From contig CM000152.2 of the NCBI GenBank assembly GCA_000004695.1, positions 2,496,001 to 2,560,000 on the forward strand: a stretch of 64,000 nt of DNA, given 5' to 3'. Positions 44,030-49,740 of the stretch are shown one piece after another. Numbering within the stretch: the stretch's first letter is position 1; each line of letters begins with the position of its first letter. The stretch is from Dictyostelium discoideum (lineage: Eukaryota). The notes under the pieces were generated by a model, which searched no databases, was not told where the DNA came from, and saw only the letters and a list, made by a program, of their open reading frames with translations. The position numbers and the translations under genes are program-made.

Positions 44030-45910
44030 TTATGTTTTTTTATTATTAACAATTATGAAATTATCATTAATGTGAGGAATTTTTCTAAAAAATAAACAAT
44101 TAATTGGATCATCTCCATTTTGAACAATACGAGTATTTATTTCGTATCCATTCTCATTTTTAATATAATAGGTAGAGGTATTAATGATTTTATCATTAAC
44201 AATTGAGTCTACTTCACATTCAATGAAATGATTCTCTATTTGATTTATTTTTATTTTAACTTGTTGAGCTGATGATGAATTTGGAGCCATTGGACTATAA
44301 TCTGGGAATATTATATAATAATCGTCTTCATTATTTGAGTTTTTAAATATAGTTGCTGAATTTATTGATATTATTTGATTATCGTCATCAAGTGAAATCA
44401 TTGGTTTAATTTTATTTATTGGTTCTTTTGTAGTTTTAATTGCTGTAGTTGTTGTTGTCGTTTTTGGTGAATTTAATTCTCTATTTTCATTTTGTTTAAT
44501 ATTTTGTTGTTGTTGTAATTGTTGTTTTATTTGTTCCAATTGTTGTTGTTGTTGTTCTAATTCTTTTTGTTTTTGCTCCAATTGTTTTTGTTGTTGTTTT
44601 ATTAGTATTTGATTTCCTGAATTTGTTTTTTTCAATAATTCCATTTCTCCCCTTATTGTGTTATTAATATTATTTAAACTATTATTTTTTAATCTATATT
44701 TCTCAATTGTTGCATCAATAATTAGATTCTCTTTTCTACTAGTGGCAACTCTTGATATCATTTTATTTGAAGGTGGTGGTGGTGGTGGTGGAGTAAAGGT
44801 TGTTGTTGTTGTTGTGGTAGTTTTTGGAATTTGTTTTGGTTGAGTTTGTTCTTTTTCTTCTGTATTGGTAATAGATGATCTTAATTTAATTTCATTTGAA
44901 GTTGAAGTTGAACTTTTTATGTTACATATTTTCCCATATATTTGATTTAAAGTATACTTAAATTGACCTGACTTGTAAATCTCTGAGGCAATTATATTTT
45001 TTGGTTTGTTTGGAGTTTTCATTTTTTTATATATTTCTAAAAGCATTTTAGAATCTTCTTCACTCCAAATCAATTTCCTCTTTTTTTCATTTTGTTTATT
45101 ATTATTATTATTATTATTATTATTATTATTATTATTATTATTATTATTATTATTATTATTATTATTATTATTATTATTATTATTATTATTATTATTATTA
45201 TTATTATTATCATTATTATTATTATTATTTATTATTTTATCTGGATTACAATATTTTAATCCACATTTATCAAAATAAAATTTCCAATCTTCATTAAAGA
45301 TTTTATCTTTTGAGGTAAATATGAAAGATCCACCATCGATTGCAGGTTTTCGTGGAGGATAATTATTTAATATGTATGACGATCCTTTTTCAAATTTAAT
45401 TTCAATTTCTAAATCTTTGTTTATTAGTGTTTTGATTACTTTTACTGATGTTATATGTTCATTAGGTATTTCAATATCAACGATTTTATTTAATTCTGTT
45501 GAAATTCTAAATATTACCCTTTCTAAACAAAAAATGATTGGACCATTCATATTTAAATATCTAAAAGATGTTTGACCATTTTCTTCACTTGAATCTTTTT
45601 TTAATTTTTGTCCCTCTTCTATTTTAATTATAATAATAGGAATTTCTCCTCCTAAACATCCATTTGAATAATATCCACCATTAAAATCTTTAATTGGAGA
45701 TCTATATTTGAAATTTTCCGATTGGATACCATCAACATTTTCATCATCTTCATTTTCATTCTCTCCATCATAGTAGTAAATATTGTTATCATTTATAGAG
45801 AGTATATTATTATTATTATTATCCTCTTCACTCTCTTCATCACTGGTAATTTCAATTTCATCTAAACTAGATCCCACTTTATTTAATTCTTCAATTTTTC
45901 TTTTTGACAT
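44030..45910 (-). CDS. hypothetical protein, paralog 1 of a tandem family: acidic N-terminus, Myb/SANT-like WSEED motif, Q-rich coiled coil, conserved C-terminal domain ending FIIVNNKK
   Basis: 626-aa single ORF. KKRKLIWSEEDSKMLLEIYKKM (Myb/SANT-like). Poly-N from (ATT)n at 45100..45240. Coiled coil KQLEQKQKELEQQQQQLEQIKQQLQ. C-terminal ~110 aa (ISINSATIFKNSNNEDDYYIIFPDY...FIECEVDSIVNDKIINTSTYYIKNENGYEINTRIVQNGDDPINCLFFRKIPHINDNFIIVNNKK) is shared with 46369..47877 and 48566..48950. Also has an extra N-terminal globular region not present in paralog 2. Confidence 0.6.
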   Translation of the reverse strand: MSKRKIEELNKVGSSLDEIEITSDEESEEDNNNNNILSINDNNIYYYDGENENEDDENVDGIQSENFKYRSPIKDFNGGYYSNGCLGGEIPIIIIKIEEGQKLKKDSSEENGQTSFRYLNMNGPIIFCLERVIFRISTELNKIVDIEIPNEHITSVKVIKTLINKDLEIEIKFEKGSSYILNNYPPRKPAIDGGSFIFTSKDKIFNEDWKFYFDKCGLKYCNPDKIINNNNNNDNNNNNNNNNNNNNNNNNNNNNNNNNNNNNNNNNNNNNKQNEKKRKLIWSEEDSKMLLEIYKKMKTPNKPKNIIASEIYKSGQFKYTLNQIYGKICNIKSSTSTSNEIKLRSSITNTEEKEQTQPKQIPKTTTTTTTTFTPPPPPPPSNKMISRVATSRKENLIIDATIEKYRLKNNSLNNINNTIRGEMELLKKTNSGNQILIKQQQKQLEQKQKELEQQQQQLEQIKQQLQQQQNIKQNENRELNSPKTTTTTTAIKTTKEPINKIKPMISLDDDNQIISINSATIFKNSNNEDDYYIIFPDYSPMAPNSSSAQQVKIKINQIENHFIECEVDSIVNDKIINTSTYYIKNENGYEINTRIVQNGDDPINCLFFRKIPHINDNFIIVNNKKT

Positions 45911-46368
45911 AATTGCGGTATACTATTATTATTGCTAAAAACAAAAAAAAAAAAAAAAAAAAAAAAAAAATTTTTTCATTTTTTTTTTTTTTTTGTTCAT
46001 GCAATGAGATATTTTGAAAAAAAAAAAAAAAATAACTGAAAAGATTTTATTTTAATAAATCTAATATTTTTATTTGTTTTTTAAAAAATAATAAAAAAAA
46101 AAAAATAACTATTATTAAGTTTTTAAAAGTTTGTTTTTTATTATTAAACATTATAAAAATTTATGGGTTTCTAAATAAACATATAATTAATTAAAAAAAA
46201 AAAGTGAAATTTATTAATTAAATTCCACCTAAGTTGAAACTTCAATTTTTTATTTTTATTTTGTTGTAATTTTAAAAATAGGAAATCTTTTTTTTTTTTT
46301 TTTTAAAGATTTGATTTGCTTTTTTAATTTTTTTTTTTTTTTTTTTTTCTTTTATAATAATATTATTA

Positions 46369-47877: not shown

Positions 47878-48565
47878 AATTTTGTGATGGTTGTTGTAAT
47901 GAAAACAAAAAAAGGAAATGAAAAAAAAAAAATATGAAAAAAAAAAAAAAAAAATAAAAATAAAAAATGAAAAAGTAAAAAATTCAGTTAATGTCTAGAT
48001 CGAATTTAATAATTTTTAGATTTAGATTTAACAGAATTTTAAGGTACAGGGAACAAAAAAAATTAAAAAAATAAAAATATTTTTTTATTTTATTTAATTT
48101 TTATTATTTATTTTTTTATTTGTTTTTTATTTATTTAAATTGGGCCTACAATAATATTTTTAATTAATTATTTTTTGTTAATTTTTTATTTGTTTATTTT
48201 TCAAAAAATATTTTTTATTTGACCCACTCACCCACATAACATTCTCTCTACAATTAGATATGACATTATCCACCATTGATTATTTACAACATAAAGAGAA
48301 TCTAGATACAACACTGCTACCACAGTTTTTTACAAAAAAATTGAACAATATTAATGTTTTATAAAAAAAAAAAAAAAAAATTAGAAATTAAATTAAAATT
48401 TCACTGGAATTGAGCGATTATAATTTTTTAATTTTTTTTTATATTATATTGAAATTCAAAAAATAGGAAATCTTTTTTTTAAGATTTAATTTTCTTTTTT
48501 ATTCATTTAATTTTTTATTTTTATTTATTTTGTTTTTTTTTTAAAAAACATAATTATTATTTTTT

Positions 48566-49740
48566 ATTATTTACAATTATAAAATTGTTATCAATTTCAA
48601 GAATTTTTGAATATACTAAACATTTAATTTGATTATTTCCATTATCAACAACTCCATTAGTAATTTCAAAACCATCCATATTTTTAATATAATAAACGGA
48701 AGTATTAATGATTATTTCATTAATAAATGATTCTACTTCACATTGAATGAAATCACTCTCTCTTTTAATTATATTTATATTAACTCTTTTAGAGTATTGT
48801 ATTACTGATGATGATAAATAAATTTGATGCCATTTGACTAAAATCTGGAAATATTATATAATAATCATCTCTATTATTTGGATTTTTAATTACAATTGCT
48901 GAATTTATTGATATTATTTTATTATCATCAAGTGAAATCATTGGGTAAATAAATTTTTATTTATTGGTTTACTTGTAGTTTTTATTGTTGTTGTTGTTGT
49001 TGTTGTGGCTGTGGTTTCTGATTTATTTGTATCATGCCAAAGTTGATACTGGTGATTTAATTTTTGATGTTCAAGCAATGTCTTTTGATGATTCTGAATT
49101 TGTGGTTTTAATTTTTCATTTGATTCTTTAATTTTTTCTTTAATTTTTTCTTTAATTTATTTGTTTTTGATGTTGTTGTTGTTGTTGTTGTTGTTGTTGT
49201 TGTTGTTGTTGTTGTTGTTGTTGTTGTTGTTGTTGCTTTTGTTGTTGTTGTTGTTTTTGTTGTTGTTGTTGATCTAATTCTTTTTTTTTTTCTTTTAAAT
49301 TATTATTCTCTTTTACAACAAATTCTTTATTCCATGATTTAATTTCATTTTTTCTAACTAAAAATTTTAATTTTAAATTTTGAATTTTTGATTTAATTTG
49401 TGTCGATGTAAATTTAAATTGATTGGTTTGGAATATATCAGAGGAAACTGAATCTAATGTTTTTTGGTTCTTTTTCCATAATTGATTTATATAGTTTCCA
49501 AAGTTTTTCTGTATCTGAATTACTCCATATACGATTTTTTCTTTTACCAATTATATAATTTTCACCATCTTCATCATTTTCTTCATCGTTTAATTCTCCT
49601 TCTTCATCTTCTTCTTTATCATAATTTAATACCCCAAGATATTGAACATCATTATCATCATCTTCATCATCCTCCATTATGAATTCATCATGGTTTATAA
49701 AAATTCCATCTTCTTCATATTTTCCAATTGTACTTGCCAT
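48566..49740 (-). pseudogene. paralog 3 of the same family, disrupted by frameshifts and a stop
   Basis: The C-terminal domain is recognisable but split over two frames: ...PMISLDDNKIISINSAIVIKNPNNRDDYYIIFPDFSQMASNLFIIISNTIL* in one frame, then SSSVIQYSKRVNINIIKRESDFIQCEVESFINEIIINTSVYYIKNMDGFEITNGVVDNGNNQIKCLVYSKILEIDNNFIIVNNKK* in the +1 frame. In-frame stop just upstream of PMIS. The N-terminal part with the NRIWSNSDTEKLWKLYKS motif (ORF 49438..49740) is out of frame with the Q-rich middle (ORF 49152..49550). Unless these are sequence errors, it is a pseudogene. Confidence 0.5.

What the first reader, a model, noticed from the sequence alone, without database searches (positions are those of the whole stretch)
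44030..49740. Tandem triplication of an unrecognised gene family (Myb/SANT-like WSEED motif + conserved ~110-aa C-terminal domain), with one frameshifted copy, directly next to a tRNA/TRE hotspot
Three head-to-tail minus-strand genes (44030..45910, 46369..47877, 48566..49740) share the same architecture. This is an acidic N-terminus, a K(K/R)x(I/V)IWSEED...(L/I)xEI(Y/F)xKK motif reminiscent of Myb/SANT/MADF-type DNA-binding domains, a poly-Q/coiled-coil middle, and a strongly conserved C-terminal block (ISINSAT(I/V).K..NN.DD.Y(I/V)IFPDY ... F(I/V).C.V(D/E)S..N..IINTS.YYIKN..G..I.......GD..I.CL....KIPHI(N/D)D(N/D)FIIVNNKK). I do not recognise this C-terminal block as a known domain. Copy 1 has an additional ~150-aa globular N-terminal region absent from copy 2. 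Copy 3 retains all three parts but in three different frames with internal stops, which fits a decaying duplicate. The array begins about 160 bp from a tRNA-Ser gene that has attracted three retroelement insertions. This suggests the locus is recombination- or insertion-prone and the family is expanding and contracting.
Basis: seen in the sequence. Interest (0 to 1): 0.55.

Follow-up and report, generated by a model that had tools for sequence, protein, structure and literature searches.

The report
Fast-evolving tandem Myb-like gene trio
Three neighbouring genes in this social-amoeba DNA are copies of one young gene family that probably encodes DNA-binding proteins with an unrecognisable tail domain; one copy is truly broken in this strain, and the nearby tRNA gene and retroelements are a later arrival, not the cause of the gene copies.

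Summary
There are two intact minus-strand ORFs (626 and 502 aa) and a third copy split over three frames. Copy 3 carries four frameshifting indels (-2, -23, +5, +1 bp) relative to an intact 424-aa ortholog in a divergent isolate. All four are identical in a second D. discoideum assembly, so they are not sequencing errors.

The 'WSEED' region is a confident three-helix bundle. It gives weak but consistent Myb/SANT-like Pfam hits (GeBP-like_DBD in 7/7 members, all below gathering). The C-terminal ~125 aa is a real orphan: it has no Pfam, PDB or viral match, and only locus-mates were found among 1.84 billion representatives. It is predicted all-beta at low confidence.

The family evolves fast (dN/dS 0.6-1.0 against 0.14 for a neighbouring gene), yet the intact copies keep their frames (16/16 indels in-frame against 5/27 in intergenic DNA). 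The 3' halves are homogenised (paralog dS 0.2-0.3 against 0.85-1.3 in the Myb region). D. citrinum retains only two decayed remnants.

The tRNA-Ser/TRE block is absent from both relatives that have the array, so the hotspot interpretation is not supported.

Most likely these are dimeric, lineage-specific Myb/SANT-type nuclear regulators evolving by birth-and-death plus gene conversion. Interest is modest.

The parts
44030..45910 (-). Copy 1, intact single-exon gene (626 aa + stop)
   Evidence: ORF. A 611-aa ortholog, P0002, exists in L003 at 95.3% nt identity, and all 9 indels are in-frame.
45215..45733 (-). Copy 1-specific N-terminal region (aa ~60-232), beta-rich, fold unknown
   Evidence: Absent from copies 2 and 3 (A4). 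dN/dS of the whole N-terminal part is 0.375, the lowest of the three copy 1 regions with an estimable ratio. No Pfam or PDB sequence match. The AF2 model has low confidence, and Foldseek gives only weak PH/PTB-like hints with E>0.5.
44906..45085 (-). Copy 1 basic cluster (KKRK) plus Myb/SANT-like three-helix domain (aa 276-335; W282)
   Evidence: AF2 helices at aa 284-297, 304-313 and 321-329 with pLDDT 84-90. Pfam GeBP-like_DBD E=2e-3 and Myb_DNA-bind_6 E=7e-3.
44033..44404 (-). Copy 1 C-terminal orphan block (aa 503-626)
   Evidence: Alignments A1/A3. dN/dS 1.30 against the L003 ortholog.
46369..47877 (-). Copy 2, intact single-exon gene (502 aa + stop)
   Evidence: ORF. The identical 502-aa product is called in GCA_054883475.1. 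A 528-aa ortholog exists in L003 at 95.1% nt identity, and all 7 indels are in-frame.
47293..47502 (-). Copy 2 basic cluster plus Myb/SANT-like domain (aa ~126-195; W136)
   Evidence: Pfam GeBP-like_DBD E=1.7e-4. Alignment A6.
46831..46995 (-). Copy 2 heptad-repeat (coiled-coil-like) segment, aa 295-349
   Evidence: Heptad heuristic. This segment is 45% identical to copy 1 but only 15% identical to copy 3.
46372..46755 (-). Copy 2 C-terminal orphan block (aa 375-502)
48557..49740 (-). Copy 3, unitary pseudogene in this strain (all parts of the architecture present, five frame segments)
   Evidence: Three-frame translation. Four frameshifting indels relative to the intact 424-aa L003 ortholog. 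Identical in a second assembly apart from one in-frame CAA.
49464..49469 (-). Copy 3 lesion 1: 2-bp deficit in an A-run (A6 here, A8 in the intact ortholog), inside the Myb-like region
49155..49159 (-). Copy 3 lesion 2: site of a 23-bp deletion at the end of the polyQ tract
48951..48955 (-). Copy 3 lesion 3: 5-bp insertion (AATTT) just upstream of the C-terminal block
48818..48818 (-). Copy 3 lesion 4: 1-bp insertion (T) inside the C-terminal block
   Evidence: The gene model P0001 in the other assembly had to splice around this lesion.
46241..46368 (-). 3' flank of copy 2, paralogous to the 3' flank of copy 3 (48427-48556)
   Evidence: Megablast gives 81% over 529 bp spanning the C-terminal block and flank. 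Stop-proximal spacer similarity has z=7.0 against shuffles.
43790..43871 (-). tRNA-Ser(AGA): neighbour, not part of the family
   Evidence: ARAGORN and Rfam. Absent at the syntenic site in L003 and D. citrinum.
41362..43634 (-). Three 5'-truncated non-LTR retroelement fragments downstream of the tRNA (TRE3-typical position): neighbour, not part of the family
   Evidence: Repeat family D1/D2. ORFs of 271 and 214 aa are related to each other and carry a C-terminal CX2C...H...C motif. TRE3 position rule from PMC5006619.

Best explanation
This is a young tandem family found only in D. discoideum and its closest relatives, and only at this one locus between the adh_short and PAC1 genes. It consists of single-exon genes that most likely encode nuclear, dimeric DNA-binding regulators. 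Each protein has an acidic N-terminus, a basic NLS-like cluster directly followed by a Myb/SANT-like three-helix domain (closest to the GeBP/trihelix/MADF branch), a low-complexity linker, a coiled-coil-like segment, and a ~125-aa all-beta C-terminal domain with no detectable relatives. I infer that the C-terminal domain is a partner- or ligand-binding module. The array evolves by birth-and-death combined with gene conversion or unequal exchange. The 5' (Myb) halves are old and diverged. The 3' halves have been homogenised, and the 3' flanks of copies 2 and 3 are shared, which makes copy 2 a mosaic: copy 1-like in its middle part and copy 3-like at its 3' end. Protein sequence changes almost as fast as silent sites, but the reading frames of copies 1 and 2 are actively maintained. 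In the window's strain copy 3 was recently inactivated by four real frameshift indels. In a divergent isolate it is intact, and in D. citrinum both remaining copies have decayed. The adjacent tRNA-Ser with its TRE insertions is a later, lineage-specific neighbour with no causal link to the triplication. Shown here: gene structure, paralogy, the lesions and their reproducibility, synteny, rates, and the helical fold of the Myb-like region. Inferred: DNA binding, nuclear location, dimerisation, and the role of the C-terminal domain.
Against: No Pfam match reaches its gathering score, so the Myb/SANT assignment rests on consistent weak hits plus a predicted fold. The profile found no Myb protein among PDB sequences. 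Foldseek could not confirm the helical domain because the model also contained long disordered parts. The C-terminal model has low confidence (pLDDT 55), so 'beta-sandwich' is tentative. dN/dS near 1 in copies 1 and 2 is also what relaxed, nearly neutral evolution would give. There are no expression, localisation or binding data. The protein databases visibly lack several family members, so 'restricted to this locus' is provisional. The simple unequal-crossover origin of copy 2 is only partly supported: the promoter-proximal spacer halves show no detectable paralogy, z=1.6.
Confidence: 0.6

Rival explanations
1. One reading: the tRNA-Ser/TRE cluster marks a recombination- or insertion-prone hotspot, and this hotspot drives expansion and contraction of the gene family.
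For: The array ends 159 bp from the tRNA. Three retroelement fragments lie beyond it. The family does show gain, loss and conversion.
Against: The full three-gene array is present, with all copies intact, in L003. That genome has no tRNA or TRE at the site, and D. citrinum also lacks them. Synteny breaks at window ~43880 and resumes at ~41280 (L003) or ~41100 (D. citrinum), so the tRNA/TRE block is an insertion or deletion polymorphism outside the array. TREs target tRNA genes through the Pol III machinery, not through local recombination, and 61% of tRNA genes carry one (PMC5006619). The exchange tracts detected are between gene copies, not next to the tRNA.
Confidence: 0.07
2. The whole family is functionless: copies 1 and 2 are neutrally drifting ORFs on their way to the pseudogene state already reached by copy 3 and by the D. 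citrinum copies.
For: dN/dS is 0.61 and 1.01 for copies 1 and 2, and ~1.0-1.3 in their C-terminal blocks. Inactivation has happened independently more than once. No homologs were found outside the D. discoideum/D. citrinum clade.
Against: 16/16 indels in copies 1 and 2 are in-frame against 5/27 in the adjacent intergenic DNA, p=7.7e-8. ORFs of 500-626 aa survive in about 75-80% A+T DNA in two lineages separated by dS 0.11. 31 columns of the C-terminal block are invariant across five sequences, including the D. citrinum sequence P0003. The copy 1-specific region has dN/dS 0.375, and copy 3 had dN/dS 0.31 (C-terminal block 0.17) for most of its history.
Confidence: 0.15
3. Copies 1 and 2 evolve under recurrent positive (diversifying) selection, for example in a conflict with mobile elements, pathogens or social cheaters. 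On this view the orphan C-terminal domain is the interface under selection.
For: dN/dS is 1.30 (copy 1) and 0.99 (copy 2) in the C-terminal block while frames are strictly maintained. Gene number turns over between sister lineages. Tandem arrangement with conversion is typical of conflict loci.
Against: Counts are small (24.5 non-synonymous against 4.5 synonymous changes) and not distinguishable from neutrality. No site-level test is possible with two sequences per ortholog. No functional link to any conflict is known.
Confidence: 0.12
4. The genes are parts of, or recently domesticated from, a mobile element. Myb/SANT-like accessory proteins occur in PIF/Harbinger-type DNA transposons.
For: The weak hits include Myb_DNA-bind_3, Myb_DNA-bind_4 and MADF, families often linked to transposons (the link to transposons is my own background knowledge). 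The distribution is patchy and lineage-restricted.
Against: The position between adh_short and PAC1 is the same in three genomes. There is no transposase ORF in or around the array. No dispersed copies turned up in the exhaustive protein search.
Confidence: 0.04
5. The frame breaks in copy 3 are sequencing or assembly errors, and it is a third intact gene.
For: One of the four lesions lies in an A-run.
Against: All four lesions are identical in a second chromosome-level assembly. That assembly differs from the window elsewhere in homopolymer lengths and in one CAA repeat, so it is not a copy of the same sequence. Two lesions are a 23-bp deletion and a 5-bp insertion, which are not homopolymer slips. 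The other assembly's annotators needed an artificial splice to bridge the break.
Confidence: 0.02

Closest known systems
Plant GeBP/GPL (STK/GeBP-like) transcription factors, Pfam PF04504 GeBP-like_DBD
   Same: This is the best and only universal Pfam hit for the WSEED region: 7/7 members, best E=4.8e-5. The overall logic is similar: a non-canonical Myb/SANT-like DNA-binding domain preceded by basic residues, followed further C-terminally by a leucine-zipper or coiled-coil dimerisation segment (GeBP architecture per PMC9318833).
   Different: Scores of 19-23 bits are below the 29.5-bit gathering cut-off. GeBP is described as plant-specific, and STK/GeBP-like is listed as 'not in Dictyostelia' in the dictyostelid TF catalogue (PMC6873476). 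GeBP proteins have no counterpart of the ~125-aa beta C-terminal block or of the copy 1 N-terminal region.
Trihelix/GT factors and MADF/Myb-SANT-like domains (Pfam Myb_DNA-bind_4, Myb_DNA-bind_6, Myb_DNA-bind_3, MADF_DNA_bdg)
   Same: A three-helix bundle with an invariant first tryptophan and a '...Q(I)K.KI.NLK..' third helix. Sub-threshold hits: Myb_DNA-bind_4 in 3/7 members, Myb_DNA-bind_6 in 2/7, and Myb_DNA-bind_3 and MADF in 1/7 each. Trihelix factors also often carry a C-terminal coiled coil (my own background knowledge).
   Different: All hits are below gathering. The second and third conserved aromatic positions are I/F rather than W. These families are listed as absent from Dictyostelia (PMC6873476). 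The C-terminal domain is unrelated.
Tandem gene families evolving by birth-and-death with gene conversion (general evolutionary pattern)
   Same: Ortholog pairs are well resolved. One copy is pseudogenised in one lineage, and copies are lost or decayed in a sister species. Paralogs within the species are more alike in one segment than orthologs between species are. The dS values are mosaic.
   Different: Nothing unusual. This is a textbook pattern applied to an uncharacterised family.

Membership tests
Myb/SANT-like superfamily (three-helix HTH) | Three alpha-helices of ~10-14 residues forming a compact bundle | tested here: met
   AF2 model ma71100244bd9 has helices at copy 1 aa 284-297, 304-313 and 321-329 with block pLDDT 84-90. 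This is a prediction from a 5-row alignment, not a solved structure.
Myb/SANT-like superfamily (three-helix HTH) | Regularly spaced conserved aromatic or hydrophobic core residues (W...W/F/I...W/F/Y) | tested here: inconclusive
   The first W is invariant in 7/7 members. The later positions are invariant I and F rather than W (A6).
Myb/SANT-like superfamily (three-helix HTH) | Significant profile match to a curated Myb/SANT family | tested here: inconclusive
   Six different Myb/SANT-type Pfam families are hit at E between 4.8e-5 and 0.039. None reaches its gathering score. There are no Myb hits among PDB sequences.
Myb/SANT-like superfamily (three-helix HTH) | Sequence-specific DNA (or histone-tail) binding | not testable with these tools
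   Needs EMSA, DAP-seq or ChIP.
GeBP-like (PF04504) | Whole-protein score at or above the 29.5-bit gathering threshold | tested here: not met
   The individually tabulated scores are 19.1-22.7 bits. The best E-value among the 7 members is 4.8e-5, with no member listed as reaching the cut-off.
GeBP-like (PF04504) | C-terminal non-canonical leucine zipper | tested here: inconclusive
   A heptad segment was detected in copy 2 aa 295-349 by a crude heuristic. It was not detected in copy 1 or copy 3 under the same strict rule.
GeBP-like (PF04504) | Plant-specific distribution | tested here: not met
   The source is Dictyostelium. The family is listed as absent from Dictyostelia in PMC6873476.
Immunoglobulin-like domain (considered for the C-terminal block) | Detectable profile similarity to Ig domains | tested here: not met
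   The HMMER hit to an Ig-repeat protein (E=3.5e-6) came from 8 repeats of one short motif. hhalign probability is 1.3%. There are no Ig Pfam hits at E<=10.
Any known domain (C-terminal block) | Sequence or fold match to a curated family or a solved structure | tested here: not met
Unitary pseudogene (copy 3) | Disabling mutations relative to an intact ortholog at the syntenic position | tested here: met
   Four frameshift indels relative to the 424-aa L003 gene.
Unitary pseudogene (copy 3) | Lesions are real and not sequencing artefacts | tested here: met
   They are identical in GCA_054883475.1, which differs from the window at other homopolymers and microsatellites.
Unitary pseudogene (copy 3) | Loss of functional product or expression | not testable with these tools
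   Needs RNA-seq or proteomics.
TRE3 non-LTR retrotransposons (neighbouring fragments) | Integration ~100 bp downstream of a tRNA gene | tested here: met
   The nearest fragment ORF starts 156 bp downstream of the tRNA-Ser 3' end. The rule comes from PMC5006619.
TRE3 non-LTR retrotransposons (neighbouring fragments) | Sequence identity to TRE3 consensus ORF2 | not tested
   No TRE reference sequence was available. Only a C-terminal Cys/His motif and mutual similarity of the fragments were seen.

The most novel reading that the evidence does not exclude
Copies 1 and 2 are functional, rapidly diversifying DNA-binding proteins of a Myb/SANT branch (GeBP/trihelix-like) currently catalogued as absent from Dictyostelia. 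Their orphan C-terminal beta domain is a new fold or interaction module under positive selection in some genetic conflict (mobile elements, pathogens or social cheating). Gene conversion within the array would supply the variation.
Probability: 0.1. Interest if true: 0.6.

Novelty: new variant of a known kind. Interest (0 to 1): 0.33.

Why it matters
If the assignment holds, D. discoideum has a small, very young family of Myb/SANT-type regulators from a branch (GeBP/trihelix-like) that the dictyostelid transcription-factor catalogue lists as absent. These proteins would be fused to a domain with no relatives anywhere. That makes the locus a compact natural example of several processes at once: a new regulator family being born, its 3' halves being homogenised by gene conversion, and its members being lost within a few percent of sequence divergence. 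Copy 3 is broken in the laboratory-type genome and intact in a close relative, so it offers a ready-made natural knockout for comparison. Practically, the result corrects the tempting idea that the tRNA/TRE cluster shaped the array. It also flags doubtful gene models at this locus in a recent assembly.

Tried and rejected
(1) Ig-like origin of the C-terminal block. The HMMER E=3.5e-6 to a fish Ig-repeat protein looked promising because of the two conserved Cys, but hhalign gives 1.3% probability and the score was the sum of 8 repeats of one motif. Rejected.
(2) Viral origin of the C-terminal block. BFVD Foldseek gives nothing below E=0.2.
(4) PH/PTB-like fold for the copy 1 N-terminal region. 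The Foldseek top hits are enriched in PH/PTB folds, but all have E>0.5 on a pLDDT<56 region. I keep it only as a hint.
(5) Clean unequal-crossover origin of copy 2, as a copy 1 5' / copy 3 3' hybrid from a two-gene array. The prediction of shared 3' flanks was met (z=7.0). The prediction of shared promoter-proximal flanks was not (z=1.6). The first 150 nt of the C-terminal block instead groups copy 1 with copy 3. I downgraded this to 'mosaic produced by conversion or unequal exchange'.
(6) Introns as an explanation of the frame changes in copy 3. Homology is continuous across each break, and the intact ortholog is one ORF. Rejected.
(7) Searches that led nowhere. AFDB50 was unavailable. The P0004 look-up found no record. 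The exact window proteins are absent from the protein collection. The last word-indexed search returned only P0002 and missed known members. No genome-wide or population-level count was possible.

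
Full report
OBSERVATION. The window is very AT-rich, and all related database sequences come from Dictyostelium. 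Copy 1 is 44030..45910 (626 aa) and copy 2 is 46369..47877 (502 aa). They share 48% identity over 232 C-terminal residues (E=9e-50), and a second collinear match covers the 'IWSEED' region. Copy 3 (48557..49740) holds the same succession of parts, but in five segments spread over three frames. Copy 1 has an extra ~170-aa region (aa ~60-232) that the others lack. tRNA-Ser(AGA) lies at 43790..43871, 159 bp beyond the copy 1 stop. Downstream of it there are three copies of the same retroelement 3' unit.

IS COPY 3 REALLY BROKEN? The only database hit to the C-terminal block in the first search was P0001. This is a 111-aa gene model from another D. discoideum assembly (GCA_054883475.1), and it is copy 3's own C-terminus with an artificial splice placed over one frame break. 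That assembly (L001) is about 99.8% identical to the window. Across the three copies it differs only by one in-frame CAA in copy 3's polyQ tract and by intergenic homopolymer lengths. It is therefore independent sequence data, and it reproduces every frame break. A more divergent genome labelled D. discoideum (GCA_054859355.1, L003) carries three intact genes of 424, 528 and 611 aa between the same flanking genes, adh_short and PAC1. Aligning the window's copy 3 to the intact 424-aa ortholog (94.2% nt identity) gives exactly four frameshifting indels:
- a 2-bp deficit in an A-run near 49466;
- a 23-bp deletion near 49157;
- a 5-bp insertion at 48951-48955;
- a 1-bp insertion at 48818.
There are also five in-frame indels. 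Introns do not explain the breaks, because homology is continuous across them and the ortholog is one ORF. Copy 3 is a real unitary pseudogene in this strain. Its dN/dS against the intact ortholog is low (0.31 overall, 0.17 in the C-terminal block), so it was constrained for most of the time since the split, and the inactivation is probably recent.

WHAT THE PROTEINS ARE. Whole-protein Pfam scans give nothing significant.

The 'WSEED' region alone gives weak but consistent matches in every member tested: three from the window, three from L003 and one from D. citrinum. GeBP-like_DBD matches 7/7 (best E=4.8e-5). Myb_DNA-bind_4 matches 3/7 and Myb_DNA-bind_6 matches 2/7. MADF, Myb_DNA-bind_3 and Myb_DNA-binding match 1/7 each. 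All are below gathering. An AlphaFold model of copy 1 aa 45-350 places three helices at aa 284-297, 304-313 and 321-329 with pLDDT 84-90. A basic cluster (KKRK, KRKTKR or GKRKNR) directly precedes the invariant tryptophan, and the N-termini are strongly acidic. A heptad segment follows in copy 2 at aa 295-349. I conclude that this is a Myb/SANT-like three-helix domain of the GeBP/trihelix/MADF type. Membership of any one Pfam family is not established.

The copy 1-specific N-terminal region has no Pfam or PDB relative. Its model has low confidence, and the only hint is a set of non-significant PH/PTB-like Foldseek hits.

HOW THE ARRAY EVOLVES. The flanking adh_short gene gives dS 0.11 between the window and L003, and 0.31 to D. 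citrinum, with dN/dS 0.14-0.15. Against L003, dN/dS is 0.61 for copy 1 (C-terminal block 1.30) and 1.01 for copy 2 (C-terminal block 0.99). Both are significantly more non-synonymous than adh_short (p=1.5e-3 and 3.7e-5). Yet all 16 indels in copies 1 and 2 are in-frame, against 5 of 27 in the adjacent intergenic spacers (p=7.7e-8). The reading frames are therefore under selection.

Between paralogs, dS is 0.21-0.30 in the C-terminal block but 0.85-1.3 in the Myb region. The D. discoideum C-terminal blocks are more similar to each other (74-81% nt) than to either D. citrinum block (54-71%). In the Myb region, by contrast, D. citrinum remnant A clearly pairs with copy 3. Copy 2 groups with copy 3 in the C-terminal block (bootstrap 100) and shares its 3' flank (81% by megablast; z=7.0). 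In the coiled-coil segment, however, copy 2 resembles copy 1 (45% against 15%). Informative sites are mosaic: 120 group copy 2 with copy 3, 45 group copy 1 with copy 2, and 55 group copy 1 with copy 3. The first 150 nt of the block favour copy 1 with copy 3. This is the signature of gene conversion or unequal exchange among tandem copies. A clean 'copy 2 is a crossover hybrid' model is only partly supported, because the promoter-proximal spacers show no paralogy (z=1.6).

D. citrinum keeps only two decayed remnants in a 3.2-kb interval. Remnant A is copy 3-like, with a 280-aa N-terminal ORF and a shattered C-terminal block. Remnant B has the middle and the C-terminal block with stops and a frameshift. 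The overall pattern is birth-and-death plus concerted evolution.

THE tRNA/TRE NEIGHBOURHOOD. L003 and D. citrinum have no tRNA in the fetched 21-kb loci. Synteny with the window breaks at ~43880, just before the tRNA, and resumes at ~41280 in L003 or ~41100 in D. citrinum. The tRNA-Ser and its three retroelement fragments are therefore specific to the window's lineage, whereas the three-gene array is shared with L003. The fragments lie where TRE3 elements are expected, about 100 bp downstream of tRNA genes. Since 61% of D. discoideum tRNA genes carry a TRE, the cluster is ordinary (PMC5006619).

COMPARISON WITH KNOWN FAMILIES. The closest described proteins are the plant GeBP/GPL factors, which have a central non-canonical DNA-binding domain plus a leucine zipper (PMC9318833), and the trihelix/MADF Myb-SANT-like factors. 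The dictyostelid transcription-factor catalogue lists STK/GeBP-like, Trihelix/GT and MADF as not found in Dictyostelia, and counts 56 Myb/SANT genes (PMC6873476). The present proteins work like such factors in their inferred domain logic. They fail the curated thresholds, and their C-terminal domain is unrelated to anything known.

LIMITS. The protein collections lack the window's own proteins and several orthologs. No dictyostelid whole genome could be scanned. 'Single locus, two species' is therefore provisional. There are no expression or biochemical data. Both structure models rest on very shallow alignments.

VERDICT. Copy 3 is a true, recently inactivated pseudogene. The C-terminal domain is truly an orphan. 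The tRNA/TRE link is coincidental. This is a fast-evolving, lineage-specific variant of Myb/SANT-type regulators. It is of modest general interest and has some value as a small model of gene-family turnover.

Noticed in passing
window 41280-43880, compared with L003 11984-12834 and L002 11099-11186: The tRNA-Ser gene and its three retroelement fragments are a presence/absence difference between close lineages. L003 has about 850 bp of unrelated sequence at that position, and D. citrinum has about 90 bp. I could not tell whether the tRNA gene arrived in the AX4 lineage or was deleted in the others.
   Followed up: partly
L003 (GCA_054859355.1, JBTAPG010000061.1), whole locus: This genome is labelled Dictyostelium discoideum, but it differs from the window by about 5% in coding DNA (dS 0.11 in adh_short). 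That is roughly a third of the distance to D. citrinum (dS 0.31), which suggests a cryptic or mislabelled sister lineage rather than an ordinary isolate.
   Followed up: partly
L003 12515-12627: There is a near-perfect hairpin or palindrome within a GC-richer stretch (12340-12840) of the copy 1-PAC1 spacer. It matches generic miRNA-precursor models on both strands, far below gathering. It may be a MITE-like or foldback element.
   Followed up: no
L001 13028-15897 (corresponds to window 45910 down to about 43040): The annotation of GCA_054883475.1 gives copy 1 an 878-aa product that runs past the real stop codon, across the tRNA-Ser gene and into the retroelement fragment. It also splits copy 3 into 173-aa and 111-aa 'genes' with invented splices. 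These are probably automated gene-model artefacts.
   Followed up: partly
window 45094-45168, 46794, 47102-47143, 47650, 49272: There are large in-frame length differences in the polyN and polyQ tracts between the window and L003 orthologs, for example 75 bp of polyN in copy 1, 84 bp and 42 bp of polyQ in copy 2, and 60 bp in copy 3. The homopolymeric amino-acid runs are the most length-variable parts of these genes.
   Followed up: no
window 37940-39496 (+): This is a 518-aa ORF rich in polyN, with a C-terminal C2H2-like motif (YECNTCFEIFLTKLSIVNHLNQNH). It lies next to the PAC1 gene. It is called as a gene in L001 (518 aa) but is 602 and 575 aa in D. citrinum and L003.
   Followed up: no
L001 6707-7444, compared with L002 6040-6773 and L003 3587-4366: The gene upstream of adh_short is called as a 140-aa Cornichon-family protein in D. 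citrinum and L003. In the AX4-like assembly it is a 161-aa product with no Pfam hit. This may be a gene-model difference or a real change.
   Followed up: no
protein databases: The exact window proteins and several orthologs visible in the fetched loci are missing from the searchable protein collections. These include the L003 424-aa and 528-aa products and the D. citrinum 280-aa product. Negative search results for this family are therefore weaker than the database sizes suggest.
   Followed up: yes
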